Source of the DNA: Candidatus Limnocylindrales bacterium
GTDB taxonomy: Bacteria; Chloroflexota; Dormibacteria; CF-121
DNA length: 64,000 bases
Direction of reading: 5' to 3'
NCBI GenBank assembly: GCA_035632635.1
Contig: DASQGL010000068.1
Coordinates: 10,895-74,894, forward strand
The notes under the pieces were generated by a model that did no database searches, was not told the origin of the DNA, and saw only the letters and a program-made list of their open reading frames with translations. Numbering within the stretch: the stretch's first letter is position 1; every line of letters begins with the position of its first letter. This document shows, piece after piece, positions 24,465 to 61,013 of the stretch. A program made the translations under genes and the position numbers.

Positions 24465-25982
24465 GTGGGCGAGGTGCTGGGACGGGCGCTGACCGGGACG
24501 GTCAACGGTCTGGAGGGGGTCCGGATCGATGTCGAGGCGGACATCGCCCAGGGGCTGCCCGGGTTCCACATCGTGGGACTGGCCGATCGCGCGCTCCAGG
24601 AGGCCCGGGAGCGGGTCAAGATCGCGATGAACAACAGCGAGATCGAGTTTCCGGCCCTCAAGGTCACGGTCAACCTGGCCCCCGCCCAGCTACCCAAGGA
24701 GGGAAGCGGCTTCGACCTGGCGATCGCGGTCGCGATCATGAGCGCGAAGCTCGGGTGCCCGCTGCCGGTCGGGGCGGCGTGGCTGGGCGAGCTCGCGCTC
24801 AACGGTGAGGTGCGAAGCGTCCGGGGCGTGCTCGCCATTATCGGGCACCTGGCCCGGGCCGGGGCCCGCCGCTTCTACGTCCCGGCCGCCAACCTGATCG
24901 AAGCGCGCCTGGCCACGATCTTCCCCGTCCACCCGGTGCGGGACCTCCGGCAGGTCAAACGGCATCTCGTGGAGGGGACGCCGCTGCTCGAGCCCGACCC
25001 GGCCTCGGCCGAGACGACGCCCCCAGGCACCGACACCGTCGACCTGGCGGAGGTTCGCGGCCAGGCGCTCGCCAAGCGGGCGCTCGAAGTCGCGGCGGCC
25101 GGAGCGCATCATCTTTTAATGGTGGGGCCGCCGGGCGCCGGCAAGACCCTGCTGGCACGCACCGTGCCGGGGATCATGCCACCGCTCAGCCCGGCGGAGG
25201 CGCTCGAGGTGACCACGATCGCCTCCTGCGTCGGGCTGCTCCCTCCGGGAGGCGGGTTGCGCACCGAGCCCCCGTTCCGCTCGCCGCACCACACGATTTC
25301 GACCGCCGCCTTGATCGGCGGCGGGCCGATGTGGCCGCGGCCCGGCGAAGTCACGAGGGCGCATCGGGGGGTTCTCTTCCTGGACGAAATCAATGAGTTC
25401 CGGCGGGATGCTCTCGAGGGCTTGCGCCAACCGCTCGAAGAGGGCCGGCTCGTCCTCGGTCGGACGCGAGGGCACAGCACGCTCCCGGGTCGGTTCCTGC
25501 TCATCGCCGCCGCCAATCCATGCCCCTGCGGCTTCGCCGGAGATCCCCGGCGCCCGTGCGAATGCACGCCGCCGCTTCGCCAGCGATATCGGGCGCGCCT
25601 GTCCGGCCCGATCCGCGACCGGATCGACTTGCAGGTGCTCGTTCCCCGGCCCGCCTCGGCCGACCTGCTGCGGCAGGGCGAGCCCGGCGAGGAGAGCGCG
25701 CTGGTGCGCGACCGGGTGCGCGCGGCGCGAGCCCGCCAGGCGGCGCGACGGCCGGACGGTCCGCTGAACGGGGCGCTCTCCGGCGTGCAGCTGCGGCGCG
25801 ACGCCCGCCTCGACGAGGCGGGAATCGTCCTGCTCGAGCGGGCGGCCGAGCGTCTCCACCTGAGCGGGCGGGCGGTTCACCGCGTGGTCCGCGTCGCGCG
25901 GACGATCGCGGATCTGGCCGCCGTCGACGAGATTCGGGCCGTGGACGTCGCGGAGGCTCTCCAATTTCGCGAGACCGGCTGA
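24465..25982 (+). CDS. comM: Mg-chelatase-like AAA+ protein ComM/YifB
   Basis: N-terminal Lon-like domain, Walker A (GPPGAGKT), and a C-terminal EALQFRE motif. GTG at 24465; the upstream part of the listed ORF is an antisense artefact. Confidence 0.85.
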   Translation: MGEVLGRALTGTVNGLEGVRIDVEADIAQGLPGFHIVGLADRALQEARERVKIAMNNSEIEFPALKVTVNLAPAQLPKEGSGFDLAIAVAIMSAKLGCPLPVGAAWLGELALNGEVRSVRGVLAIIGHLARAGARRFYVPAANLIEARLATIFPVHPVRDLRQVKRHLVEGTPLLEPDPASAETTPPGTDTVDLAEVRGQALAKRALEVAAAGAHHLLMVGPPGAGKTLLARTVPGIMPPLSPAEALEVTTIASCVGLLPPGGGLRTEPPFRSPHHTISTAALIGGGPMWPRPGEVTRAHRGVLFLDEINEFRRDALEGLRQPLEEGRLVLGRTRGHSTLPGRFLLIAAANPCPCGFAGDPRRPCECTPPLRQRYRARLSGPIRDRIDLQVLVPRPASADLLRQGEPGEESALVRDRVRAARARQAARRPDGPLNGALSGVQLRRDARLDEAGIVLLERAAERLHLSGRAVHRVVRVARTIADLAAVDEIRAVDVAEALQFRETG

Positions 25983-26848
25983 TCCTCGACCGCGGCCAGC
26001 CCGGCTATCCGGAGCTGCTCGCGGAGATCCCCGACCCGCCCGACCGGCTGTACCTGCGGGGCGTGATGCCGGCCGGGGTCATGATCGCGATCGTCGGCTC
26101 GCGCCGGGCGACTCCGTACGGGCTTCGGGTTGCACAGACGCTCGCCCGCGACTTCGTTCGGGCGGGCGCCGTCGTCGTCAGCGGCCTGGCCCGGGGCATC
26201 GATGCGGCCGCCCACGAGGGCGCGATCGAGGGGGGCGGCAAGACCGTGGCGGTGCTCGCCACCGGACTCGACCCCGTGTATCCGCCCGAGCACACCGCGC
26301 TCGCCGACCGGGTGGCGCGCCACGGCGCGCTGCTGAGCGAGGTGCCCGATGGGACCGTGCCCTTGCCGGGCCGGTTCCCCATCCGCAACCGGATCATCAG
26401 CGGGCTCAGCCGTGGACTCGTGATCGTGGAGGCAGCCGCACGCAGCGGTGCGTTGATCACGGCCCGCATGGCGCTCGAGCAGGGGCGCGAAGTCTTCGCG
26501 GTGCCCGGCAGCATCGAGAATCCGATGACGGCCGGAACCCATGCGCTGATTCAGGATGGCGCGGCGCTCGTGCAGAGCGCGGAGGACGTGCTGCGCGTCA
26601 TGGGTGAGCTTCCCCTCGTGCACGCGCACACTCGCGCGCGCGTACGCGCGAGCGCGGGGCCCCGGGAGCCCGAATTGGCCGCCGTTTGGGAGTTGCTCGA
26701 CTGGGTAGAACCCCGCCATCATGATGAATTGGCGGCTTTGCTCGGACTCCCGGTGCAAGAAGTGAGTCGCCGCTTGACTTTGCTGGAGATGGGCAACTAT
26801 ATAATCGGCGACTGCGGTGCCGTGACTCGCCGCCCACACATGAGCTGA
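25964..26848 (+). CDS. dprA: DNA processing protein DprA/Smf (Rossmann + C-terminal winged helix; no N-terminal SAM domain)
   Basis: GYPELLAEIPDPPDRLYLRG and IAIVGSRRATPYG motifs. The conserved region begins before the first canonical start (GTG 26063 / ATG 26066). A candidate ATT at 25964 has a GGAGG SD 7 nt upstream. Confidence 0.8.
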   Translation: MSRDRLILDRGQPGYPELLAEIPDPPDRLYLRGVMPAGVMIAIVGSRRATPYGLRVAQTLARDFVRAGAVVVSGLARGIDAAAHEGAIEGGGKTVAVLATGLDPVYPPEHTALADRVARHGALLSEVPDGTVPLPGRFPIRNRIISGLSRGLVIVEAAARSGALITARMALEQGREVFAVPGSIENPMTAGTHALIQDGAALVQSAEDVLRVMGELPLVHAHTRARVRASAGPREPELAAVWELLDWVEPRHHDELAALLGLPVQEVSRRLTLLEMGNYIIGDCGAVTRRPHMS

Positions 26849-40977: not shown

Positions 40978-41850
40978 ATGGCTGCGAACTGGCGTGCCGT
41001 GCGGAGACTCGCGAGCCTGCTCGGCGTTGGGGTGGGGCTGCTCGCCATCTTCGGCGTGATCGCGCTGGCCGCGCTGCGGCCGGCCGACGGGTACGCCTGG
41101 GTGCAGGTCCCGCAACTCGCCCCCGACACGCGGCTGGACGCCGGTCTTGCCACCCAGCCGCTGGCCGCCAGCGTGGTCGCCGAGGCGCTGGCGGACCGGG
41201 CGCTGATCGGGGCGACGGTCCAGCCCCAGGGTCCCGTTGTTCCTCCCATCCTGACCGTTCCGGCGCCGGCGAGCCCTGCCCTGCCCCCGGCGGCGCCCTC
41301 GGCGCGGCCCACGTTGCCGCCGGCGCCGATGCCCACGCCGACGCCGCGACCGACGCCGGCGCCCACGCCGACCCCGGCGCCCACGCCGACGCCCAGGCCC
41401 ACGCCGACGCCCGCGCCCACGCCGGCGCCCCGGCCCACCCCGACGCCGCGACCGACGCCGGCGCCGACGCCCACGCCCACGCCGACCCCCACCCCGACGC
41501 CGCGACCGACGCCGACGCCGGCGCCAGGCCCGTTCCGGCTGACCTGGGCCGGCGAGCTGGTCGTGCTCCAGGGTCCGGGGCAGAGCAAGCGTTGCGCGTC
41601 GAGCACGGTGACCGCCAGCGGCGCCTTCGCGACCAACGGCGTCGGCGGCACGGTCCAGTACCACTGGGTGCGCATCACCAGCTCGGGAAGTGAAGACGAA
41701 CCGGTGCACACCGTCGTGATCGCGGCGGGTGACCGCCAGGTCCACACCGTCGTGCCCGACAGCTGGACGCCGCCCTCGTCGGGGAGCGAGCAGCTCGTCT
41801 TCACCGCGCCCGTCTACACGGTGCCGGCGCAGTCATGGACGTGCCGGTGA
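40978..41850 (+). CDS. Membrane-anchored protein with a Pro/Thr-rich repeat linker and a small extracytoplasmic Cys-containing domain
   Basis: One N-terminal TM, about 70 aa of (PTPxP)n, and an ~110-aa C-terminal domain. Overlaps the downstream diguanylate cyclase gene. Confidence 0.6.
41329..41524 (+). repeat. Tandem imperfect ACGCCG/ACGCCC-type nucleotide repeat encoding the PT-rich linker
   Basis: ccacgccgacgccgcgaccgacgccggcgcccacgccgacccc... repeated about 15 times, with period ~6–15 nt. Confidence 0.7.
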
Positions 41851-41867
41851 GGCCGCCCGCGATTCGA

Positions 41868-44513
41868 ATGCCGGCGATGAGGATCCGGACGCAGATCATT
41901 CTGCCCTTCCTCCTGCTCATGATCATCCTGGGCATCGTCGGCACCTACCTGGCCACGAGCCTGGTCGCATCCTCACTCGAGCGGCGGATCGGCGACCAGC
42001 TGGTCATGTCCGAGGATGCGGCGCTCAACGAAGCGGTGCGGGTCCAGGGGCAGCAGCTGGCGGGGATCCGACTGATCGCCAACACGGAGGGCGTGGGGGC
42101 CGCGGTCGCCAGCTCGAACGCCGCCGTCCTCAAGCAGCTGATCGTGCCCCTCGAGGTCAACAACCGCCTCGGCGGCATCAAGGTCTTCGACGCCCAGGGC
42201 CGCACCATTCTCGAAGTCGACCAGCCGGACCCCTCCAACCCGAGCGGCCTCGTCTTCGCGAGCGGGACGGATCTCTCCCATGACGCCATCGTCCGCCCGG
42301 TCCTGGCCGGCGCATACGACGCGCTGGGCGACAAGTACCTCGGTTTCTCCGGCGCACCGGTCACGGCCCTGGCGGCGACCGGCCCGGTCCTGAACGGCGA
42401 CCGCGTCGTGGGCGGGGTCATGATCCTGACCCCGCTGAGTACGTTGCTCGGGGACATGCGCAGCCATTCGCAGGCCGCCGTGGGCCTCTTCGATCGCGGC
42501 GGTCACGTTCTCGGGTCGACGCTGACGGGCATCCGAACGCTGGACGACCACACGCGGGCCTTCCTCGACCTCGCCTCGCCGGGCCGGGCGCAGCGCTCAA
42601 CCGTCCAGGTGGCGGGGCAGGCGTATGAGATCCAGTACACGAACTTCTATCTCCGGCAGCGCCCGGTCGGATACCTCGCGGTCGGGCTCTCCCGCGCCGC
42701 GGTGATCTCCGCGGGCCTGCAATCGGCGCTGCAGATGACCATCCTGTTCGCGGCGGTCGTCCTCCTGCTGCTGGTCATCGGCTACCTTCTGGCGCTCCGC
42801 CTGACCGCCCCCATCGAGGCGCTGGTCGCCGGCACCCGGGCGGTGGCCCGCGGCGATCTGAGCCGGCGCATCACCCTGCAGCGAGGCGATGAGCTCGGCG
42901 AGCTGGCCACCGCGTTCAACCTGATGAGCAGCGAGCTCGAGGAACGCACCCGCTCCCTGAACGAGCAGATGCGGCGCCTGGCCGTCCTCTACCAGTCGAG
43001 CCAGGGGATCGGGCGCGAGAGTGGGCACGGGGCGATCGCGGAGGCGATCCTGACGGTTGCCCTCAAGGCGCTCGGTCTCGACCAGGCAGTCCTGGTCTCG
43101 CGGGGCACGGAAAGCCAGGTGCTGGAGGTCGGCGCGGCGGTGGGGTTCGCCGCACCGGCGGTGGGGCGCCTGCGCCGGCTGACGCCGGCCGAGCTGGACG
43201 AGGGGTTGGAGCTGACCCCGGGTGCGCCGCCGGAGCGGGTCGCGAACCTGCCCGATGAGGCGAGGCCTGTCCTGCGGCTGGTCGGCGAGCTCGGCGGCCT
43301 CGAGCAGGCGATCCTCGTGCCCCTGGTTCGCGGCGACCGCAATGCCGGCTATCTGCTGGCCGGCGTCCCGACCGGTCGCAACCTGGCCGCGGCGGATCTC
43401 GAACTCCTCGAGACGATCGGGACCGAGATGGCCCTGACGCTGGAGAATGCCGAACTCAAGAAGACGACGGAGCTCCAGGCTCACCGGCTGGACCAGGCAA
43501 TCGTCGCCCTCGAGAAGATCTCGCAGGCGTTGACCGCGGTGACCGTGGGAACCGACACCCTCCTGCGCGCCGTCGCCCGAGCGGCATCCGAAATCCTCGA
43601 GGTCCCGTATGCCTCGATCCATCTGCGCAAGCCCGAGTGGCGCAAGCATTTCCCCGACGTCATCGTGGGCTGCTCCACCCGGCGTGAGCTGGCCGGGGTC
43701 CGGCTCAGCGGGCAGGAGGTTGCCCGGCGGATCGATCGGCCCGACCAGTTGCTGCAGCTGGACCTCACCGCGGAGAGCGCCACCGCCGGCGCTCGGCGGA
43801 TCGGCCTGATCGAGGCGATCGGCGTCCCCATGGCGCTCAACGGGGAGATCGCCGGCGTGCTCGTCGTGCATCTGCGCGCCGCCCGGCGATTCGCCCGCAG
43901 CGAAACGCGCGTCCTGCAGACGCTTGCCAACCAGGCGGTGATCGCGATCGACAACGCGGAGGCATACGAAACGACCCGGCAGCTCGCGACGACCGACTCC
44001 ATGACCGGGGTGGCCAACCACCGTGAGTTCCAGGCGCGCCTCGATCGCGAACTCACCCGAGCCCGGCGATCGCGGGAACCGATGGCCCTGCTCATGTGCG
44101 ATGTCGACCATTTCAAGGAGATCAACGACACGGCCGGCCACCCGGCAGGCGACGCGGTCCTGCGCTATCTGACCCAGCACGTCCTCATCCCGATGGTGCG
44201 CCCGAAGGACCTGGTCGCCCGCTACGGCGGCGACGAGTTCGTCATCCTCCTGCGCGGAGCCGATGGGCGGGCCGCGGCGGCGATTGCGGAGCGGATCCGG
44301 CGGGCGTTTGCAGATCAACCACTCGAATATGAAGGCCGGGTGCTGACCAACCTCTCATTGAGCCTGGGGCTCGCCACCTTCCCCAGGGATGGGGAGACGC
44401 GCGAGGCGCTCGTGCAAGCCGCCGACCAGGCCCTCTACGTCGCCAAGCGCAGCGGACGCAACCGCGTCGCCCGCAGCGACGACGCCCTGCCCCCGGAGTC
44501 GCTCGCCGGGTAA
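41868..44513 (+). CDS. Sensor diguanylate cyclase (TM – periplasmic Cache-like – TM – HAMP – 2×GAF – GGDEF)
   Basis: HAMP (LRLTAPIEALVAGTRAVARGDLSRRI), GGDEF domain with intact RYGGDEF and DHFKEIND. Alternative starts at 41835 and 41877. Confidence 0.85.
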   Translation: MPAMRIRTQIILPFLLLMIILGIVGTYLATSLVASSLERRIGDQLVMSEDAALNEAVRVQGQQLAGIRLIANTEGVGAAVASSNAAVLKQLIVPLEVNNRLGGIKVFDAQGRTILEVDQPDPSNPSGLVFASGTDLSHDAIVRPVLAGAYDALGDKYLGFSGAPVTALAATGPVLNGDRVVGGVMILTPLSTLLGDMRSHSQAAVGLFDRGGHVLGSTLTGIRTLDDHTRAFLDLASPGRAQRSTVQVAGQAYEIQYTNFYLRQRPVGYLAVGLSRAAVISAGLQSALQMTILFAAVVLLLLVIGYLLALRLTAPIEALVAGTRAVARGDLSRRITLQRGDELGELATAFNLMSSELEERTRSLNEQMRRLAVLYQSSQGIGRESGHGAIAEAILTVALKALGLDQAVLVSRGTESQVLEVGAAVGFAAPAVGRLRRLTPAELDEGLELTPGAPPERVANLPDEARPVLRLVGELGGLEQAILVPLVRGDRNAGYLLAGVPTGRNLAAADLELLETIGTEMALTLENAELKKTTELQAHRLDQAIVALEKISQALTAVTVGTDTLLRAVARAASEILEVPYASIHLRKPEWRKHFPDVIVGCSTRRELAGVRLSGQEVARRIDRPDQLLQLDLTAESATAGARRIGLIEAIGVPMALNGEIAGVLVVHLRAARRFARSETRVLQTLANQAVIAIDNAEAYETTRQLATTDSMTGVANHREFQARLDRELTRARRSREPMALLMCDVDHFKEINDTAGHPAGDAVLRYLTQHVLIPMVRPKDLVARYGGDEFVILLRGADGRAAAAIAERIRRAFADQPLEYEGRVLTNLSLSLGLATFPRDGETREALVQAADQALYVAKRSGRNRVARSDDALPPESLAG

Positions 44514-47604: not shown

Positions 47605-47713
47605 GGTCGGGCGCAATTCGCGCGGCACCCTGTAACCGGGGATTTTCGCGGCTGTTACCGGCGCGAACGCGGCGCCACCTGCGATGTAAGGTACGCAACT
47701 TACAGTAGTGCCC

Positions 47714-48592
47714 ATGAACGCCGCACTCATCAGCAAATCCGTCGGAGGGGTGGCCGTCGCCTCCGGCCTCGTGCTGGCCACGTCCGTCTGTGGATTTGCT
47801 CAGGATGCTGCCGTCGCACTCGGCGCCGCCGCCACCACGCCGCTGACCGCCCTCTATTCGAATCCGCCTGCGGGTGCGGTGACCCTCGCGGGCAAGCCGT
47901 TCGTGGTGGGCAACTTCGACTGGCTGGCCGCCGGTCAGACCGGGACGTTCGCGGCCTCGTACGCGGGGCCGACCGCGGTCTCGGTGCTGATCAACAGCTC
48001 GTATACGGCCGCCACCTACGCCGGCTACAAGGTCGGCACCGTGCAGCTCACCTTCACCGACGGAACGACCCAGTTCGTCGACCTGGTGGAGGGCAGCAAC
48101 GTCCGTGAGTGGCTGATCGGGGCCGGCAATACCGTCAACACCGTGACCGATCCGTCCAACACGAACGCGTGGACGGGCTTCAGCGGGAGCACGACGGCCG
48201 TGATCGACATGCTGACCATCGCGGTGCCGTCATCCACCAAGACGCTGGCCAGTGTGACCGTGAACAATACCGACACGACCGGATGGGGAATCCATCTCCA
48301 GGTCTACGGGATCTCGATTGCGTACACGCCGCCCGCTCCGGTGACGACGCCCGTGACCACGCCGGTGACGACGCCGGTGCCGGTGACCGGCGACCAGCAG
48401 GGTAACCACGAGGGCCAGCATCGGGACGGCGCATCCCCGAAACTGACGCCGAAGCCGCATGCGACGCCCGCGGTGCGGGTCACATCGACGACCAGCCAGA
48501 ACGACAAGCACGGCGACGCCGATCACCGGGGTGGCCCTGGCGGCCAGAACCAGGACCAGGGTGACGGCCAGCACCATCGGGACGCCGTCTAA
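47714..48592 (+). CDS. Secreted hypothetical protein with a (VTTP)3 linker and a His/Asp/Gln/Gly-rich C-terminal tail
   Basis: Signal peptide (MNAALISKSVGGVAVASGLVLATSVCGFAQDAA). TACAGT 7 nt upstream of the ATG at 47714; the GTG at 47708 is an alternative. Terminator follows. Confidence 0.6.
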   Translation: MNAALISKSVGGVAVASGLVLATSVCGFAQDAAVALGAAATTPLTALYSNPPAGAVTLAGKPFVVGNFDWLAAGQTGTFAASYAGPTAVSVLINSSYTAATYAGYKVGTVQLTFTDGTTQFVDLVEGSNVREWLIGAGNTVNTVTDPSNTNAWTGFSGSTTAVIDMLTIAVPSSTKTLASVTVNNTDTTGWGIHLQVYGISIAYTPPAPVTTPVTTPVTTPVPVTGDQQGNHEGQHRDGASPKLTPKPHATPAVRVTSTTSQNDKHGDADHRGGPGGQNQDQGDGQHHRDAV

Positions 48593-48606
48593 ACACTGAA
48601 GTCCAG

Positions 48607-48639
48607 GAGGCCCGGCCGGCGCCGGGCCTCTTCTTTTTC
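48607..48639 (+). terminator. Rho-independent terminator
   Basis: Perfect 10-bp stem gaggcccggc/gccgggcctc with loop cggc, followed by ttcttttt. Confidence 0.65.
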
Positions 48640-48668
48640 GCCCGACGCGGTAGAGTGGGGGCGAGTCT

Positions 48669-48947
48669 TTGCACCCCGTCCCAGCCATTCCGCCCGCCGT
48701 CGTCCTCGGCGCCTTCCTGGTCCTGCTCGGCACGCAGGTGGCGTACCTGATCGCGCCCGCCCGGGCGAGCTACCTGGTGCGCCTTGGCGCGAGCGCGGTC
48801 GCCGTCGCGGCCGGCGAACTGGCCGGCTGGGGCGGGCTCGGGGCGCACCTGCAGGTCGGCCAGCTGCACCTCTACCAGGACGTCCTGCTCCTGGCCCTGG
48901 CTCAGATCGCGCTCGCCCGCTGGCGGCGGCCGCTGTCGACCGGGTAG
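48669..48947 (+). CDS. Small hydrophobic membrane protein (hypothetical)
   Basis: 92 aa, TTG start, two hydrophobic segments. A weak hairpin plus TTT follows. Could be spurious in high-GC DNA. Confidence 0.3.
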   Translation: MHPVPAIPPAVVLGAFLVLLGTQVAYLIAPARASYLVRLGASAVAVAAGELAGWGGLGAHLQVGQLHLYQDVLLLALAQIALARWRRPLSTG

Positions 48948-49011
48948 CCCGGGCGGGCTCGGCGGCGCCGCTCGGGTTTAGGAGGCTGTCCGGTAAGGTA
49001 GAACGAAAGCT

Positions 49012-49362
49012 GTGCAGGGCGTGTGGCAATGGGGAGTGCTGCTGCTGGGTGTCGGTTTCTTCTTGCTCAGCCTCGTCGCCTGCTATATCCTGCTCAACCT
49101 GACCCGGAGCCTGCGGACCGTTGAAGCGATCCTGGCCGTGACCCTCGATGAGGTCAAGGTCGCCCTCCCGGAGATGCGCCACAGCGTGGTCCAGATCGAC
49201 GACATGGTCACCAGCGTGAACGAGAAGTTCATGGCGGCAGATCGGGCGGTGGATGCGACCGGGGCCGCGATCACCGGGTGGCGCGACCGGCTCCGGGAGC
49301 GCTTCGACGGTTTGTCCGCCTGGACCAGGAGCCGGGGCGGCAAGAAGGAGAACAGCGTATGA
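49012..49362 (+). CDS. DUF948-like membrane protein (N-terminal TM + helical domain)
   Basis: 116 aa, ATGA-coupled to the downstream anti-sigma gene. AGGAGG upstream but distant. Confidence 0.55.
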   Translation: MQGVWQWGVLLLGVGFFLLSLVACYILLNLTRSLRTVEAILAVTLDEVKVALPEMRHSVVQIDDMVTSVNEKFMAADRAVDATGAAITGWRDRLRERFDGLSAWTRSRGGKKENSV

Positions 49363-49856
49363 AGGAGAGCCACAGCCGGGCGCACAGCGCGCCAACCGGG
49401 CATGTCCAAACCCCCGCCGCCGCCTCCGCCGCGCTCATCACCGAGATGAAGCTGCCCGCGGTCGAGGACTACATCCTGGCGGCGAAGCGGGCAGCCGGCG
49501 CCCTCGGCCTCGTGGTCGGCTTCTCGCTGCAGGAGATCGATGAACTGAACATCGCCGTGACCCAGGCTTGCGAGAACGGGATCGCGGCGGCCAACGAGCA
49601 ATGGGGTCGCGGCAACGGACAGCTCAAACTGCTCTTCAAGACCCAGCCTCGCCGCCTCGAGGTCGAGGTGCGCAGCGTTCCGCCCCGGGCGGTGGAGCTG
49701 CAGCAGGCGGTTCGCCAGGCCCGCCGCGAACAGGAATTCGACTACGAGACGGTTGGCGTCAATATGATCCGTCTCTTCGTCGATGAGCTCCGGTACCATC
49801 GGGACCATCAGACGGGAGTCATGCGGATGAGGATGGTCAAATACCTGATCGAGTAG
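49359..49856 (+). CDS. RsbW/SpoIIAB-like anti-sigma factor with degenerate ATP-binding motifs
   Basis: The N-terminus aligns with RsbW (EDYILAAKRAAGALG...DELNIAVTQACENGI). The DxGxG and GxGL boxes are not recognisable. AAGGAG SD 8 nt upstream. Confidence 0.7.
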   Translation: MKESHSRAHSAPTGHVQTPAAASAALITEMKLPAVEDYILAAKRAAGALGLVVGFSLQEIDELNIAVTQACENGIAAANEQWGRGNGQLKLLFKTQPRRLEVEVRSVPPRAVELQQAVRQARREQEFDYETVGVNMIRLFVDELRYHRDHQTGVMRMRMVKYLIE

Positions 49857-49984
49857 CCCGTCCGGCTTCGCAACCGACCGTTCGTCCCAACCGCGATCTC
49901 GCCCGCCGGCTTTTCCTCAAGTACCAGAAGACCAGGGATCCGAAGGTCCGCCAGCAGCTGGTCGAGCTCTTCAACAACCTGGTC

Positions 49985-50635
49985 GTGTTCCTGGCCAAGA
50001 AATTCCAGAACCGCGGTGAGCCCCTCGAGGACATCGTGCAGGTCGGGTATATCGGCTTGCTCCAGGCCATCGAGCGGTTCGAGCCGCAGCGGGATCTCGA
50101 GTTCTCGACCTTCGCCACGCCGACCATCGTGGGCGAGATCAAGCGCTACTTCCGGGACAAGAGCTGGGCGGTGAAGGTGCCCCGTCGCCTCCAGGAGACG
50201 ATGCAGAAGGCCGACCTGGCGCAGCAACGCCTCCAGGCACGCCTTGGCCGGCAGCCCTCGGTTGCGGAGATCGCGAAGGAGCTCGACCTTCCGCCCGAGG
50301 AGGTGCTCGCCGCCCAGGAGGCGAGCCCGGCTCAGCACACCGTCTCCTTCGAGAGCACCGGGCCGGCCGCCAGTGACGAGGATGGCCTGCAGCTGACCGA
50401 ACGCCTGGGCCGCGAGGACGAGAACCTGGACAAGGTCGAGCTGAAAGACCTGCTCGACCAGGCGATGGCGCACCTGACGCCGCGGGAACGGCGGATCATG
50501 TACCTGCGGTTCGTCGACGAGCTCCCCCAGGCGGAGGTCGCGAAACGGCTCGGAATCTCCCAGATGCACGTGTCCCGGCTCCAGCGGGCTGCGGTCGAGC
50601 ACCTGAAGCGAGAGCTGCCCGTCTCCGCCCGCTGA
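49985..50635 (+). CDS. RNA polymerase sigma factor, SigB/SigF (group 3) type. 49985 (GTG) is the first canonical start; region 1.2/2.1 is encoded upstream from about 49860.
   Basis: Regions 2–4 present: FSTFATPTIVGEIKRYFRDKSWAVKVPRR, and region 4 LGISQMHVSRLQRAAVEHLK (as in B. subtilis SigB). Confidence 0.85.
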   Translation: MFLAKKFQNRGEPLEDIVQVGYIGLLQAIERFEPQRDLEFSTFATPTIVGEIKRYFRDKSWAVKVPRRLQETMQKADLAQQRLQARLGRQPSVAEIAKELDLPPEEVLAAQEASPAQHTVSFESTGPAASDEDGLQLTERLGREDENLDKVELKDLLDQAMAHLTPRERRIMYLRFVDELPQAEVAKRLGISQMHVSRLQRAAVEHLKRELPVSAR

Positions 50636-54557: not shown

Positions 54558-56222
54558 ATGACTGACGGCGGCGAGCGACCGATCTTGGCGACGGAGAGTG
54601 AAATGAAGACGCTGGCGAAGTTGCTCTACGTGGAGGCGGACGAGGAGGTGACTGACCTCGTCGACCGGCTCCGCGCCCTCCAGGACGAGGACGCGGTCAG
54701 CTTTGTCGTGCCCGATCGGGCCCGCGCGCTCCAGAGCCCGATGTCGTTCCGGCTGCTCAAGCGCTACGCCGACGCCTACGGGAAGCACGTGAACCTGATC
54801 AGCTCGGACCCGCGCCTCCAGGCGCTGGCGCTGGAGTCCGGCTTCTCCGCCTACCCGACGCTCGCCGCCTACGAGTCCGGGGCGGAGGTCCACCGTCCGG
54901 GAGAGAGCGCCGACTCGGCCCAGGCGGAAGGGCCGGTTGGGGCGGCGGCTGCCGTCGCGGTCGCCGAGCCGGTCCTGGCCGGCGTCGCCGAGTCCGCCGC
55001 TCCGCCGTACGCCCGGACCCGGACGCAGGACGTCGTCTCCGCGCCGCCGCGCAAGCCGGTGGCCGCGCCCGCGGACCGCGGGCGGGTCGTCAAGCCTCCG
55101 CGCGACAGGCGGCTGTTCGCGATCGGCGGGGGCGTCGTCGCGCTGCTGGCGCTCGTCTTCGCGGTGCTGTTTGTGCCCACGGCCGACGTGCGCCTGACCG
55201 TGACTGGGACGCCGCTCAAGACCGACATGCAGCTGATCGGGCAGCCCAACCCGGTGTCGGGCACGATCGACCACTTCCCAACCCAGGCGATCAGCGCCAC
55301 GGAGAGTCTCACCGCGCAGGGCACCGCCACCGGTCAGAAGCAGATTCCGGCGATAGCGGCGACGGGCCAGGTGGTCTTCAAGAACAACTCACACTTCGTC
55401 GTTCAGTTCCCACGCAATACCGAAGTAGGCGCCGGAGGAAATGTGAGATTCCGGACGCAGGCCGCGACCGAGTTCCTCTTACCGGGTAGCTCCTCCAAGA
55501 GCATTCCGATTACGGCCGAGAACGCCGGCGCGAGTGGCGACGTCGCTGCAAACGCGATAACGATCATCTATCCGACGGATCAGACTCAAGACTTCGCCGT
55601 CAACAATGCGCAAGCGACCGGCGGTGGTGCCGATCAGCGCGTCGCCACGGTCATCCAGCAATCGGACATCGATGCCGTGAGCCAGGCGCTCACCTCGCAG
55701 CTCAACCCGAAGGTCCAGGACGACCTGAACGGCAAGGCGAAGGGGCAGCACCTGATCGCCCCGGACCAGCCGAAGGTTCAGACACAGACGGATCACCAGC
55801 TGGGCGACGAGACCGCGAACTTCAACATGACCATGACGATCACGGCGAGCGGCGTCACCTTCGACAACGCCCAGGTCACCAGGCTGCTGCGCGACGCGCT
55901 CCAGCGCAAGGTGCCGGTCGGCTCGCAGCTGCTCCAGGACCCGCAGCAGACCTCCTACGACGTCGCCCAGGCCACAAGTGACGGCAACGTGACGCTCAAC
56001 GGCCACGCGTCCGGCTACACGGTGATCGTCTTCTCCCAGGAGGCGATGCGGGCGCACATGAAGGGCCACTCGCCGTCGTCCGCACGGGCGTTCCTGCAGG
56101 GCCTGCCGAACGTGGTCGACGTCAACCTGCGCCAGGATCCGATCGGCCTCCCGTGGCTGCCGTTCTTCTCCTCCCACATCACGATCCACATCCAGGAGGT
56201 CACCGGGACCGCGTCTCCGTGA
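54558..56222 (+). CDS. Single-pass membrane protein: N-terminal cytoplasmic α/β domain, A/P-rich linker, TM, and a ~330-aa T/Q/N-rich extracytoplasmic β-rich domain
   Basis: TM LFAIGGGVVALLALVFAVLFV at ~aa 200. Follows the FtsA-like gene 49 nt downstream. GTGA-coupled to ruvX. Confidence 0.6.
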   Translation: MTDGGERPILATESEMKTLAKLLYVEADEEVTDLVDRLRALQDEDAVSFVVPDRARALQSPMSFRLLKRYADAYGKHVNLISSDPRLQALALESGFSAYPTLAAYESGAEVHRPGESADSAQAEGPVGAAAAVAVAEPVLAGVAESAAPPYARTRTQDVVSAPPRKPVAAPADRGRVVKPPRDRRLFAIGGGVVALLALVFAVLFVPTADVRLTVTGTPLKTDMQLIGQPNPVSGTIDHFPTQAISATESLTAQGTATGQKQIPAIAATGQVVFKNNSHFVVQFPRNTEVGAGGNVRFRTQAATEFLLPGSSSKSIPITAENAGASGDVAANAITIIYPTDQTQDFAVNNAQATGGGADQRVATVIQQSDIDAVSQALTSQLNPKVQDDLNGKAKGQHLIAPDQPKVQTQTDHQLGDETANFNMTMTITASGVTFDNAQVTRLLRDALQRKVPVGSQLLQDPQQTSYDVAQATSDGNVTLNGHASGYTVIVFSQEAMRAHMKGHSPSSARAFLQGLPNVVDVNLRQDPIGLPWLPFFSSHITIHIQEVTGTASP

Positions 56223-60105: not shown

Positions 60106-60663
60106 ATGGTGGGTCCCAATGAATTCCGCAACGGCATGACGATCGAATGGGAGGGTGAGCCCTACATCGTGCTGCAGTTCCAGCAGAGCCAGCTTGGCCG
60201 CGGCGACACATTCTTCCGGACCAAGCTGAAGCATCTGCGGAGCGGCGCCATCATCGAGCAGAAGTTCCGGGACAAGGACCGATTCCCGCGCGTTCGGATC
60301 GAACGCGTGCCGATGCAGTATCTCTACAGTGATGGCGACCGCCATTTCTTTATGGACAGCCAGACCTATGACCAGATCCCTCTCAGTGATGAGCAGCTGG
60401 GCGACGCCCTCAAGTATCTGAAGGAGAACGCTCCCATCGAAGTGCTCATGTACGAAGGTGCGCCGCTCGGCGTAGAGTTGCCAACGACGGTGGATCTGAA
60501 GGTGACCCAGACGGCGCCCGGGTTCAAAGGGGACACTGCCGCGGGCGGCGGGAAGCCCGCGACCCTGGAAACGGGCCTCATCCTGAACGTGCCCTTCTTC
60601 GTCAACACCGGGGACGTGATCCGGGTGGATACGCGCACCGCGTCGTACGTGGAGCGGGTCTGA
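60106..60663 (+). CDS. efp: Elongation factor P
   Basis: EFRNGMTIEWEGEPYIV...KPGKG-type loop; 185 aa. Confidence 0.95.
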   Translation: MVGPNEFRNGMTIEWEGEPYIVLQFQQSQLGRGDTFFRTKLKHLRSGAIIEQKFRDKDRFPRVRIERVPMQYLYSDGDRHFFMDSQTYDQIPLSDEQLGDALKYLKENAPIEVLMYEGAPLGVELPTTVDLKVTQTAPGFKGDTAAGGGKPATLETGLILNVPFFVNTGDVIRVDTRTASYVERV

Positions 60664-61013
60664 TGGCCGAGCGGGGGCTCGGGTCGGTCAAGGTGGCCAA
60701 CGAGGTCATCGCCCACATTGCCGCGCTCACCGCCGGCCAGGTCCAGGGCATCGCCGGCCTGTACCATGCCGGGGCCCGGGATGGACACCGGGCGCTGCCG
60801 CCCCAGGCCGGCTACAAGGGCGTGCGCGTCGACATGACCAACGACAGCTTGCGCCTCGAACTGTTCCTGATCGTCGATCACTCCGCCCACGTCCCGACGG
60901 TGGCCGCCGAGGTTCAGCGCCAGGTGGCGGATGCGATCGACAAGATGCTGGGCATCGAGGTCCGCCAGGTGGATGTCTTCATCGGCGATGTGCGTTTTCT
61001 CGGAGATCAGTAG
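60663..61013 (+). CDS. Asp23/Gls24 family protein (second paralog, YqhY-like slot upstream of nusB)
   Basis: 116 aa with Asp23-family pattern (VANEVIAHIAALTAGQVQGIAGL...). Confidence 0.75.
   Translation: MAERGLGSVKVANEVIAHIAALTAGQVQGIAGLYHAGARDGHRALPPQAGYKGVRVDMTNDSLRLELFLIVDHSAHVPTVAAEVQRQVADAIDKMLGIEVRQVDVFIGDVRFLGDQ

What the first reader, a model, noticed from the sequence alone, without database searches (positions are those of the whole stretch)
49012..50635. Stress-sigma module with an apparently kinase-dead RsbW-like anti-sigma factor and no STAS anti-anti-sigma
Three ATGA/short-gap coupled genes:
- a DUF948-like single-TM protein (116 aa);
- a 166-aa RsbW/SpoIIAB-like protein;
- a SigB/SigF-type sigma factor.

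The RsbW-like protein keeps the N-terminal sigma-binding/dimerisation region and the N-box Asn (AVTQACENGI). I cannot find the DxGxG (G1) or GxGL (G2) ATP-lid motifs that RsbW/SpoIIAB use to phosphorylate RsbV/SpoIIAA. For example, where RsbW has GGLGLYLM this protein reads TVGVNMIRLF. No STAS-domain gene is adjacent.

A 116-aa membrane protein occupies the slot where the ~110-aa anti-anti-sigma normally sits. This suggests a partner-switching system rewired so that a membrane protein, not a phosphorylatable STAS protein, controls a pseudokinase anti-sigma.

Upstream in the same direction are a His-rich secreted protein and a small membrane protein.
Basis: partly seen in the sequence, partly recalled or inferred. 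Interest (0 to 1): 0.6.

Follow-up and report, generated by a model that had tools for sequence, protein, structure and literature searches.

The report
Kinase-dead RsbW-like anti-sigma operon
This is a stress-type sigma factor operon, conserved across the uncultured soil lineage Dormibacterota, whose RsbW-like anti-sigma factor has lost its kinase motifs (as mycobacterial UsfX has); the idea that the neighbouring membrane protein replaces the usual STAS partner remains unproven.

Summary
Positions 49012-50635 carry a DUF948-like membrane protein, a 165-aa RsbW/SpoIIAB-fold protein and a SigB/F/G-type sigma factor.

- **Kinase motifs are lost across the family.** The catalytic Glu is Gln, the G1 DxGxG box is RSVPPR, and G2 keeps one Gly. 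The ATP lid is a variable, disordered stretch.
- **No STAS gene is nearby.** None was found in the 64-kb window or within about 6 kb of the module in 87 related loci. Whole genomes could not be searched.
- **Kinase-dead RsbW homologues are already known.** Mycobacterial UsfX/RsbW1 is one, and its STAS antagonists are encoded elsewhere in the genome.
- **A sigmaB/F-type promoter is conserved.** GTTT-N15-16-GGGTAT occurs at 82 of 84 distinct loci. It precedes DUF948 where that gene is present (46 loci) and lies upstream of the anti-sigma gene where it is absent (38 loci).
- **DUF948 is therefore not part of the conserved core.** Its Bacillus homologue YtxG/FacZ is a SigB-regulon envelope protein.

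Verdict: a lineage-specific member of the known kinase-inactive anti-sigma class. The membrane-protein rewiring idea is possible but weakly supported.

One extra point: in this clade the sigma gene has no ATG/GTG/TTG start, and it overlaps a 32-nt invariant element at the anti-sigma 3' end.

The parts
48976..49004 (+). SigmaB/SigF-type promoter-like motif GTTTAG-N14-AGGTAG(AAC). The -10-like hexamer ends 10 nt before the DUF948 GTG, so the mRNA has a very short leader or none.
   Evidence: The motif is conserved in position in all clade members (alignment). GTTT-N14-18-GGTA was found in the expected place in 82 of 84 distinct loci across the lineage, with almost no other hits in those loci. 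A strict version was expected 0.145 times in the shuffled window and was found twice.
49012..49362 (+). DUF948-like (FacZ/YtxG-like) protein of 116 aa, with an N-terminal membrane anchor and a helical cytoplasmic part. First gene of the operon.
   Evidence: Pfam DUF948 E=1.8e-6, below the gathering score. Hydropathy peak over residues 3-30. Conserved at 68-83% identity within the clade. Present in 46 of 84 distinct loci.
49359..49856 (+). RsbW/SpoIIAB-fold anti-sigma factor of 165 aa that lacks the N-box Glu, the G1 box and most of the G2 box. Predicted pseudokinase.
   Evidence: Pfam HATPase_c_2 above the gathering score. AF2 pLDDT 82, with a disordered lid at residues 117-127. Top Foldseek hits are RsbW, SpoIIAB and UsfX. 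Motif table.
49825..49856 (+). Invariant 32-nt element GGATGAGGATGGTCAAATACCTGATCGAGTAG at the anti-sigma 3' end. It contains an SD-like GAGGA (49829-49833), ATA (49841-49843) and GTA (49853-49855) in the sigma frame, and the TAG stop.
   Evidence: The last 8 sense codons and the TAG stop are invariant in 19-20 of 20 distinct sequences, against about 1-1.8 bits of codon entropy elsewhere in the gene. No Rfam family reached its threshold and the fold has no excess stability, z=+0.55.
49841..50635 (+). SigB/SigF/SigG-family sigma factor. It would be 264 aa if started at ATA 49841. The conserved coding region certainly extends upstream of the first canonical start, GTG 49985.
   Evidence: TIGR02980 at 270.8 bits, with Sigma70 regions 2, 3 and 4. 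Upstream in-frame conservation with only 3-nt indels. 89-97% identical within the clade, which is more conserved than AlaS or AspS.
48669..48947 (+). Small multi-hydrophobic membrane protein (92 aa). A syntenic neighbour upstream of the promoter, detected at most related loci, and probably a separate transcription unit.
   Evidence: phmmer hits in most loci. No Pfam family.
48605..48642 (+). Intrinsic terminator after the His-rich 294-aa protein gene (47708-48592).
   Evidence: 12-bp stem with 9 GC pairs, followed by a T-run.

Best explanation
This is an operon for a stress-type (group 3, SigB/SigF-like) sigma factor. It is transcribed from a sigmaB/F-type promoter that the encoded sigma probably recognises itself, which would give positive feedback.

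The second gene encodes an RsbW/SpoIIAB-fold protein that has lost the residues needed to bind and hydrolyse ATP. It most likely acts as a purely stoichiometric anti-sigma factor, holding the sigma as a dimer. Mycobacterial UsfX/RsbW1 works this way.

Sigma translation is coupled to the end of the anti-sigma gene. In this clade it uses a non-canonical start inside a 32-nt invariant element. The best candidate is AUA at 49841, 7 nt after GAGGA. A weak start of this kind would keep sigma below anti-sigma.

The first gene encodes a DUF948 (FacZ/YtxG-like) membrane-anchored protein. It is a lineage-specific co-transcribed passenger or regulon member, not an obligatory switch component.

The signal that frees sigma is not encoded in the locus. 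By analogy it would be an unlinked antagonist, a STAS protein or an RsbW paralogue, or turnover of the anti-sigma.

- **Shown:** gene content, motif loss, fold, conservation, promoter motif, start-codon anomaly.
- **Inferred:** binding to sigma, autoregulation, the AUA start, the nature of the input.
For: - **Domains.**
- **Family-wide motif loss.** E to Q in the N-box, Asn variable, G1 replaced by RS(V/I)PPR, G2 reduced to one Gly or none, and a lid of variable length.
- **Fold.** AF2 model with pLDDT 82 and a disordered lid. Best structural matches are RsbW 6m36/6m37, SpoIIAB 1l0o/1th8 and Mtb UsfX 8ih8/8jzt. The family profile hits RsbW at E=3.7e-18 and UsfX at 0.02.
- **Sigma contact retained.** The Arg that contacts sigma and STAS in RsbW (R23) aligns with the invariant K43-R44.
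- **Conserved pairing.** The anti-sigma gene lies next to sigma, at the same hisS-aspS...alaS site, at all but a few truncated loci of the 87.
- **Promoter.** The motif is present at 82 of 84 distinct loci. It sits upstream of DUF948 when that gene is present (44 of 46) and upstream of the anti-sigma gene, downstream of any DUF948 position, when it is absent (38 of 38).
- **Precedent.** In mycobacteria a kinase-negative RsbW1/UsfX is co-transcribed with sigF from a SigF-dependent promoter. In M. smegmatis that promoter lies upstream of an unrelated small gene, chaB. The STAS antagonists RsfA and RsfB are unlinked (PMC7693655).
- **DUF948 identity.** It is the FacZ/YtxG family (PMC10914604), and ytxG/ytxH are in the B. 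subtilis SigB regulon (PMC7824861).
- **Sigma start.**
Against: - No experiment or complex prediction shows that this protein binds the sigma.
- Whole genomes could not be searched, so an unlinked STAS antagonist is assumed by analogy, not seen.
- In every clade a conserved small membrane-protein gene lies immediately upstream of the anti-sigma gene. A pure 'passenger' view does not explain this.
- The DUF948-to-anti-sigma ATGA overlap is the kind of coupling often seen between interacting partners.
- AUA is a very weak start codon in the organisms where it has been measured.
- A related clade (L040 type) has the same GAGGA but GTA at that position, with CTG overlapping the stop. The start assignment is therefore uncertain.
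Confidence: 0.6

Rival explanations
1. The small membrane-anchored protein encoded just upstream (DUF948 here; other small single-pass proteins in other clades) is the input module. It binds or tethers the pseudokinase anti-sigma at the membrane and takes the place of a phosphorylatable STAS anti-anti-sigma.
For: - DUF948 is the first gene after the sigmaB/F-type promoter and overlaps the anti-sigma start as ATGA. This is the position of rsbV in the Bacillus sigB operon.
- Every clade has a conserved small single-pass membrane-protein gene directly upstream of the anti-sigma gene. These are DUF948, an s53/s40 family (HHalign probability 95.7% between clades 2 and 3), s78 and s50.
- No STAS gene lies within about 6 kb at any of 87 loci.
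- The canonical STAS-facing lid is degenerate.
Against: - DUF948 is absent from 38 of 84 distinct loci that keep the promoter, anti-sigma and sigma core.
- The small proteins fall into at least three families with no detectable relationship.
- In clades 2 and 4 the conserved promoter lies downstream of, or inside, the small-protein gene, so that gene is outside the feedback unit.
- The characterised function of DUF948 is envelope and division control through GpsB, and in Bacillus it is a SigB target.
- Unlinked STAS antagonists are the rule for the known kinase-dead homologue.
Confidence: 0.15
2. There is no dedicated antagonist. Sigma activity is set by the relative synthesis and stability of the anti-sigma and sigma. 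A weak, coupled sigma start gives excess anti-sigma, and stress-induced proteolysis or dilution of the anti-sigma frees sigma, amplified by the autoregulated promoter.
For: - The conserved non-canonical or overlapping sigma start and the invariant 32-nt element suggest tightly tuned stoichiometry.
- The core of promoter, anti-sigma and sigma is the only invariant part across the lineage.
- From my own knowledge, SpoIIAB is controlled partly by ClpCP proteolysis.
Against: - No degradation tag or protease link was seen.
- The family ends directly after the last beta-strand, with no C-terminal tail.
- All characterised RsbW-type systems use an antagonist.
Confidence: 0.12
3. The protein is still an active ATP-binding kinase with unusual motifs, phosphorylating an unlinked STAS protein. 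This is what public annotations imply, for example 'serine/threonine-protein kinase RsbW' and 'ATP-binding protein'.
For: - The Pfam HATPase_c_2 hit is above the gathering score.
- JGI and NCBI names imply a kinase.
- The N-box Asn is present in this particular sequence.
Against: - The catalytic Glu is Gln in nearly the whole family.
- The adenine-binding Asp of G1 is Ser, and the G1 glycines are Pro and Arg.
- G2 keeps at most one Gly.
- The Asn is not conserved among relatives.
- The lid varies in length and is predicted to be disordered.
- The NCBIfam RsbW score is far below its cut-off.
Confidence: 0.03

Closest known systems
Mycobacterial UsfX/RsbW1-SigF operon (M. tuberculosis Rv3287c-Rv3286c; M. 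smegmatis chaB-rsbW1-sigF)
   Same: - An RsbW-fold anti-sigma without kinase activity or motifs.
- Encoded directly upstream of, and co-transcribed with, a SigF/SigB-type sigma.
- Driven by a sigma-dependent GGTTT...GGGTAT-type promoter. In M. smegmatis this promoter sits upstream of an unrelated small gene.
- No STAS gene in the operon (PMC7693655).
- UsfX structures 8ih8 and 8jzt are among the fold matches.
   Different: - Not orthologous. The family profile matches B. subtilis RsbW much better (E=3.7e-18) than UsfX (E=0.02).
- The degenerate motifs differ. UsfX keeps the N-box Glu and has lost the Asn; here the Glu is Gln.
- Mycobacteria have identified STAS antagonists (RsfA, RsfB) and an RsbW3 antagonist. 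None is known here.
- The first gene here is a DUF948 membrane protein.
B. subtilis RsbV-RsbW-SigB core (and SpoIIAA-SpoIIAB-SigF)
   Same: - Best sequence and structure match for the anti-sigma.
- Same gene order for anti-sigma and sigma.
- An internal sigmaB-type autoregulatory promoter in front of a gene of about 110 aa that precedes the anti-sigma.
- The promoter consensus GTTTaa-N12-14-GGGTAT resembles the motif found here.
   Different: - RsbW and SpoIIAB are active kinases with intact N, G1 and G2 boxes.
- The upstream gene in Bacillus is a phosphorylatable STAS protein. Here it is a membrane-anchored DUF948 protein with no STAS similarity.
- The kinase motifs are lost here.
FacZ/YtxG (DUF948) of Firmicutes, and the ytxGHJ general-stress operon
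   Same: - An N-terminal membrane anchor with a cytoplasmic helical region.
- A sub-threshold Pfam DUF948 match.
- In B. subtilis, ytxG and ytxH belong to the SigB regulon (PMC7824861).
- In one Dormibacterota clade, DUF948 is followed by a weakly YtxH-like gene before the anti-sigma. This echoes the ytxG-ytxH order.
   Different: - The Pfam score is below the gathering threshold.
- The protein is shorter (116 aa against about 140-150 aa).
- No GpsB-binding tail was examined.
- Here the gene is physically inside the sigma operon.

Membership tests
RsbW/SpoIIAB-type anti-sigma serine kinases (GHKL, Pfam HATPase_c_2) | Bergerat-type alpha/beta fold with an N-terminal beta1/alpha1 dimerisation and sigma-binding region | tested here: met
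   AF2 model with pLDDT 82. Foldseek top hits are RsbW, SpoIIAB and UsfX at E=1e-10 to 1e-7. Pfam HATPase_c_2 scores 30.9 bits against a gathering score of 27.4.
RsbW/SpoIIAB-type anti-sigma serine kinases (GHKL, Pfam HATPase_c_2) | N-box with catalytic Glu and Mg-binding Asn (E-x-x-x-N) | tested here: not met
   The Glu is Gln in the window and in most relatives. The Asn is present here but is S, K, A or another residue in relatives.
RsbW/SpoIIAB-type anti-sigma serine kinases (GHKL, Pfam HATPase_c_2) | G1 box DxGxG (adenine-binding Asp) | tested here: not met
   'ADEGDS' in RsbW and 'RDEGLG' in SpoIIAB align with 'RSVPPR'.
RsbW/SpoIIAB-type anti-sigma serine kinases (GHKL, Pfam HATPase_c_2) | G2 box GxxGxG/GxG and an ordered ATP lid | tested here: not met
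   'GGLGL' aligns with 'ETVGV'. Many relatives have 'LAL' or 'VAV' with no Gly. The lid varies in length and has pLDDT<50.
RsbW/SpoIIAB-type anti-sigma serine kinases (GHKL, Pfam HATPase_c_2) | Curated equivalog score (NCBIfam RsbW, SpoIIAB) | tested here: not met
   36 bits against a cut-off of 145 for RsbW, and 23 bits against 135 for SpoIIAB.
RsbW/SpoIIAB-type anti-sigma serine kinases (GHKL, Pfam HATPase_c_2) | Adjacent STAS substrate or antagonist gene | tested here: not met
   None in the window or in 87 loci. The rest of the genome could not be tested.
Kinase-inactive RsbW-type anti-sigma factors (UsfX/RsbW1 class) | RsbW fold with loss of kinase motifs, encoded next to and upstream of a SigF/SigB-type sigma | tested here: met
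   The class is described in PMC7693655.
Kinase-inactive RsbW-type anti-sigma factors (UsfX/RsbW1 class) | Sigma-dependent (GGTTT-N16-17-GGGTAY-like) promoter in front of the operon | tested here: met
   The motif is conserved at 82 of 84 distinct loci. Recognition by this sigma is inferred, not tested.
Kinase-inactive RsbW-type anti-sigma factors (UsfX/RsbW1 class) | Physical binding and inhibition of the cognate sigma; release by unlinked STAS antagonists | not testable with these tools
   No multimer prediction or genome-wide search was available.
Kinase-inactive RsbW-type anti-sigma factors (UsfX/RsbW1 class) | Orthology to UsfX | tested here: not met
   The profile matches UsfX at E=0.02 over the N-terminal half only, against E=3.7e-18 for RsbW. 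The loss of kinase motifs appears to be independent.
DUF948 (FacZ/YtxG) | Pfam PF06103 match at or above the gathering score | tested here: inconclusive
   E=1.8e-6 and 28.5 bits against 37.2. A clade-3 homologue scores 29.5 bits.
DUF948 (FacZ/YtxG) | A single N-terminal transmembrane helix followed by a cytoplasmic coiled-coil or helical region | tested here: met
   The hydropathy window exceeds 1.6 only over residues 1-34. The architecture is as described for FacZ. Coiled coil was not computed.
STAS anti-anti-sigma (RsbV/SpoIIAA) | STAS fold or Pfam STAS match for the gene in the 'rsbV slot' | tested here: not met
   The DUF948-like protein gives no STAS hit at E<=1. The STAS seed profile gives nothing at E<=10.
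SigB/SigF/SigG group-3 sigma factors | TIGR02980 above its cut-off, with regions 2, 3 and 4 | tested here: met
   270.8 bits against 234.35. Sigma70_r2, r3 and r4 are all present.

The most novel reading that the evidence does not exclude
In Dormibacterota, the STAS anti-anti-sigma has been replaced by small membrane-anchored proteins encoded immediately upstream of the anti-sigma gene (DUF948/FacZ-like here, weakly YtxH-like or other single-pass proteins in sister clades). These proteins would bind or tether a pseudokinase RsbW-like anti-sigma. Envelope status would then control a SigB/F-type sigma directly, without phosphorylation.
Probability: 0.15. Interest if true: 0.75.

Novelty: new member of a known kind. 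Interest (0 to 1): 0.4.

Why it matters
**What the finding gives**
- It defines a lineage-wide, highly conserved alternative-sigma module in an uncultured soil phylum known for persistence. The sigma is more conserved than AlaS or AspS.
- It corrects public annotations that call the anti-sigma a kinase or an ATP-binding protein.
- It supplies a likely promoter consensus for finding the regulon.
- It shows that kinase loss in RsbW-type anti-sigma factors probably happened independently of mycobacteria.

**If the membrane-protein link were real**
- It would be a new input logic for partner-switching systems.

**The sigma start**
- The conserved absence of a canonical sigma start codon, together with a 32-nt invariant element, is a testable case of non-canonical, coupled translation initiation.

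Tried and rejected
- **Programmed -1 frameshift giving an anti-sigma::sigma fusion.** The sigma frame is -1 relative to the anti-sigma frame. I rejected this as unlikely. There is no X XXY YYZ slippery site (GUC AAA UAC). Sister clades have ordinary overlapping GTGA or TTGA stop-starts.
- **An RNA structure or known RNA family in the invariant 32 nt.** The only Rfam hits are far below their gathering scores (c-di-GMP-II-GAG at 25 bits against 40, and a Pyrobaculum sRNA). The fold z-score is +0.55.
- **GTG 49985 as the sigma start.** Rejected. About 45 conserved N-terminal residues lie upstream, and length differences between the anti-sigma stop and the conserved sigma N-terminus are multiples of 3 (48, 51 or 54 nt).
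- **STAS searches.** I ran Pfam on 24 small ORFs, phmmer with RsbV and SpoIIAA, and a four-seed STAS HMM with filters off at E<=10. All were negative.
- **Extending beyond the window.** An exact-protein look-up returned only a 4.3-kb contig.
- **Iterative HMM for the 92-aa protein.** It drifted into overlapping AspS-frame ORFs and was discarded.
- **Calling the clade 2/3 small proteins YtxH.** Only 4 of 19 hit at E<=0.1, with a best E of 0.006 and all below the threshold. I kept this as a lead only.
- **RsbV-contact residues of RsbW (PMC7340262).**
  - R23 and D42 equivalents are conserved (K43/R44 and D/E62).
  - K44, E49 and Y118 equivalents are not.
  - This is inconclusive, because the same helix also binds sigma.
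- **Literature on Dormibacterota sigma or sporulation genes.** Nothing relevant was found.
Full report
**What is there**

The window is high-GC DNA (about 68-70%). The 165-aa protein is 100% identical to an NCBI MAG protein labelled Candidatus Limnocylindrales. Its relatives come almost entirely from MAGs labelled Dormibacterota/Dormibacteraeota or 'Chloroflexi bacterium'.

On the + strand there are three genes:
- A 116-aa gene at 49012-49362.
- A 165-aa gene at 49359-49856. Its ATG overlaps the upstream TGA as ATGA.
- A sigma-factor reading frame that ends at 50635.

The database matches are as follows:
- The first protein hits Pfam DUF948 with E=1.8e-6 and 28.5 bits, below the gathering score of 37.2.
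- The second hits HATPase_c_2 at 30.9 bits, above the gathering score of 27.4. Its NCBIfam RsbW and SpoIIAB scores fall far below their cut-offs.
- The third hits TIGR02980 (SigB/F/G) at 270.8 bits, above its cut-off, with sigma-70 regions 2, 3 and 4.

**The anti-sigma-like protein is a conserved pseudokinase**

The RsbW part is confirmed by the PDB alignment. The alignment shows:
- N-box 'SEACTNAVQHA' becomes 'TQACENGIAAA'.
- G1 'ADEGDS' becomes 'RSVPPR'.
- G2 'GGLGL' becomes 'ETVGV'.
- The lid is shorter.

A search of 1.84 billion cluster representatives found only 102 clusters at E<=1e-3.
- The roughly 45 closest clusters nearly all share the degenerate pattern. They have (A/T)QAC in the N-box, a variable residue in place of the Asn, no DxGxG, and usually 'LAL' or 'VGV' in place of GxG.
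- Their lids vary in length and are rich in charged residues.
- Only the most distant hits have canonical SEACNNAxxHA, DxGxG and GGLGL motifs.

These losses are fixed and under selection, so this is not a decaying gene.

The structure prediction agrees.
- An AF2 model built from the family alignment has pLDDT 82, with a disordered stretch at residues 117-127 where the ATP lid should be.
- Its best PDB matches are RsbW (6m36/6m37), SpoIIAB (1l0o, 1th8, 1tid, 1til) and M. tuberculosis UsfX (8ih8 with RsfB, 8jzt with SigF).
- The family profile matches RsbW at E=3.7e-18 and UsfX at only 0.02. The kinase loss therefore looks independent of the mycobacterial one.

Helix alpha1 keeps an invariant Lys-Arg (K43-R44) at the position of RsbW R23.

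**Conservation and context**

A scan of one genome per species returned 153 loci, of which 80 were kept. Almost all come from Dormibacterota-type MAGs, and one is a complete 3.3-Mb chromosome.

Every locus long enough to judge is at the same chromosomal site:
- GGDEF protein, hisS, aspS, then optionally the 294-aa protein, then the 92-aa membrane protein.
- Next one or more small membrane-protein genes, then the anti-sigma, then sigma.
- Finally alaS and an ftsA/pilM-like gene.

These are orthologues that have diverged to 36-45% identity across the lineage.

The sigma is more conserved than AlaS or AspS. Within the clade it is 89-97% identical against 67-83% for the synthetases. Across the lineage it is about 55% identical against 44-54%.

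**No STAS nearby**

None was found in three tests:
- Pfam on 24 small ORFs of the window.
- phmmer with RsbV and SpoIIAA.
- An unfiltered four-seed STAS profile at E<=10 over all 10,306 six-frame ORFs of the window and 87 loci.

Whole genomes could not be searched with the tools and caps available. 'No STAS in the genome' is therefore untested.

**A conserved sigmaB/F-type promoter**

Aligning the region upstream of DUF948 across the clade revealed GTTT(A/G)(A/G)-N14-(N)GGTA(G/C)AAC. In the window this lies at 48976-49004.

Across the whole lineage the looser motif GTTT-N14-18-GGTA occurs once, at the expected place, in 82 of 84 distinct loci. In most clades it is the textbook GTTT-N15-16-GGGTAT(G/C). 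It almost never occurs elsewhere in those loci. A strict version was expected 0.145 times in the shuffled window.

The motif resembles two known consensus sequences:
- B. subtilis sigmaB, GTTTAA-N12-14-GGGTAT (from my own knowledge).
- Mycobacterial SigF, GGWWT-N16-17-GGGTAY (PMC7693655).

Its position tracks gene content exactly:
- In the 46 distinct loci that have DUF948, it lies upstream of DUF948 in 44. The other two are L077, which is cut off just upstream, and L080, where no match was found.
- In all 38 loci without DUF948, it lies upstream of the anti-sigma gene.
- In the Dormibacteria-type clade it ends 11 nt before the anti-sigma ATG, which suggests a leaderless mRNA.
- In clade 2 it lies 100-220 nt upstream of the anti-sigma start.

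In clade 2 the motif is embedded in the coding sequence of a small membrane protein. There, unusual GGT and TAT codons are kept in all seven sequences.

The invariant core is therefore promoter, anti-sigma and sigma. DUF948 is an add-on in two of the four clades.

**What DUF948 is**

The family is FacZ/YtxG. It has an N-terminal membrane helix, a cytoplasmic coiled coil and a disordered tail. It acts in envelope and division-site control through GpsB (PMC10914604).

ytxG and ytxH are listed in the B. subtilis SigB regulon (PMC7824861). In clade 3 the operon reads DUF948, then a weakly YtxH-like gene, then the anti-sigma, then sigma. This echoes the ytxG-ytxH order.

These facts favour DUF948 as a co-expressed target or effector gene.

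One result points the other way. Each clade has a conserved small single-pass membrane-protein gene directly upstream of the anti-sigma gene:
- DUF948 in clade 1.
- s53/s40 in clades 2 and 3, which are mutually homologous (HHalign probability 95.7%).
- s78 in 23 loci and s50 in 5-6 loci.

At least three of these families have no detectable relationship to one another.

**Comparison with known systems**

Kinase-negative RsbW homologues are established.
- M. smegmatis RsbW1 and M. tuberculosis UsfX bind SigF and do not phosphorylate RsfB.
- They are co-transcribed with sigF from a SigF-dependent promoter. In M. smegmatis that promoter lies upstream of the unrelated gene chaB.
- They are antagonised by the STAS proteins RsfA and RsfB, and by RsbW3, all encoded elsewhere (PMC7693655).

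The Dormibacterota module has the same architecture and logic but a separate origin. I therefore file it as a new, lineage-specific member of the kinase-inactive RsbW-type class. It works like UsfX-SigF but is not an orthologue of it.

**The sigma start codon (an extra finding)**

In the window's clade, about 30 distinct species-level sequences have no ATG, GTG or TTG in the sigma frame upstream of the conserved N-terminus (...VRPNRDLARRLFLKYQ...).

The spacer between the anti-sigma stop and that region differs only by multiples of 3 nt (48, 51 or 54). The region is therefore coding, and it is phased with the stop.

Sister clades have ordinary overlapping starts: GTGA, TTGA, or TTG 7 nt before the end of the stop codon. 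Two other groups (L040/L044 and L036/L037) have CTGA.

Here the junction is GAG-TAG, so the homologous codon is GTA (49853). The only near-cognate codon is ATA (49841), 7 nt after GAGGA (49829-33).

The 32 nt GGATGAGGATGGTCAAATACCTGATCGAGTAG are essentially invariant. The last 8 sense codons and the TAG stop show essentially no variation in 20 distinct sequences. They include the rare codons AGG and AAA in a genome with about 85-90% GC3. Elsewhere in the gene codon entropy is about 1-1.8 bits.

No Rfam family or stable fold explains the element. I infer an overlapping translation-initiation region with a weak non-canonical start (AUA, less likely GUA). It would be coupled to anti-sigma termination and would hold sigma below anti-sigma. 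The exact start is not established.

**Verdict**

The pseudokinase is real and there is no local STAS gene. 'Rewired to a membrane protein' is not required by the data, and the distribution of DUF948 weakens it. Interest is moderate.

Noticed in passing
window 49787-49985 (element 49825-49856): The sigma gene has no ATG/GTG/TTG start upstream of its conserved N-terminus in this clade. A 32-nt stretch at the anti-sigma 3' end is invariant at synonymous sites across about 30 species. It contains GAGGA, an in-frame ATA, and GTA overlapping the TAG stop. Gene callers truncate the sigma to 216-224 aa.
   Followed up: partly
window 26684-26709 (+): A second strict match to the sigmaB/F-type promoter motif (GTTTGGGAGTTGCTCGACTGGGTAGA). 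It lies inside the 3' end of the 442-aa ORF at 25520-26848 and about 145 nt upstream of a 778-aa ORF whose N-terminus looks like topoisomerase I. It could be an internal promoter or a chance match.
   Followed up: no
L039-L044 and L007 (for example L040 5859-5885): In this clade the conserved promoter motif is embedded in the coding sequence of the small membrane protein s40 (G-F/L...G-Y-L). The rare GGT and TAT codons are kept in all seven sequences, which suggests nucleotide-level selection for an internal promoter.
   Followed up: partly
L049-L051 (for example L050 6435-7324): In these genomes about 750-890 nt separate the anti-sigma and sigma genes. The gap holds an opposite-strand 288-aa ORF with no Pfam hit, so the otherwise universal stop-start overlap is broken.
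   Followed up: no
window 48976-49014; L078 6005-6045: The -10-like element ends about 10 nt before the first start codon (the DUF948 GTG here, the anti-sigma ATG in Dormibacteria-type genomes). This implies leaderless or near-leaderless transcripts. Other clade members have a leader of about 50 nt with a GGGAGGA SD.
   Followed up: partly
window 60663-61013: An Asp23-family gene sits between efp and nusB, the position of B. subtilis yqhY. yqhY appears in the SigB-regulon list of PMC7824861.
   Followed up: no
window 47708-48642: The 294-aa protein has a signal-peptide-like N-terminus, a TPV-repeat and His/Gln/Asp-rich C-terminus, and no Pfam family. It is duplicated in tandem in some relatives (L018, L020, L029, L034, L036) and is followed by a strong terminator.
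   Followed up: no
window 41835-44513 and 54558-56222: The conserved flanks of the module are a dCache/HAMP/GAF/GGDEF protein upstream of hisS, and, after the ftsA/pilM-like gene, a protein of about 550 aa. The homologue of that protein in L001 carries a Pfam Baseplate_J hit.
   Followed up: no
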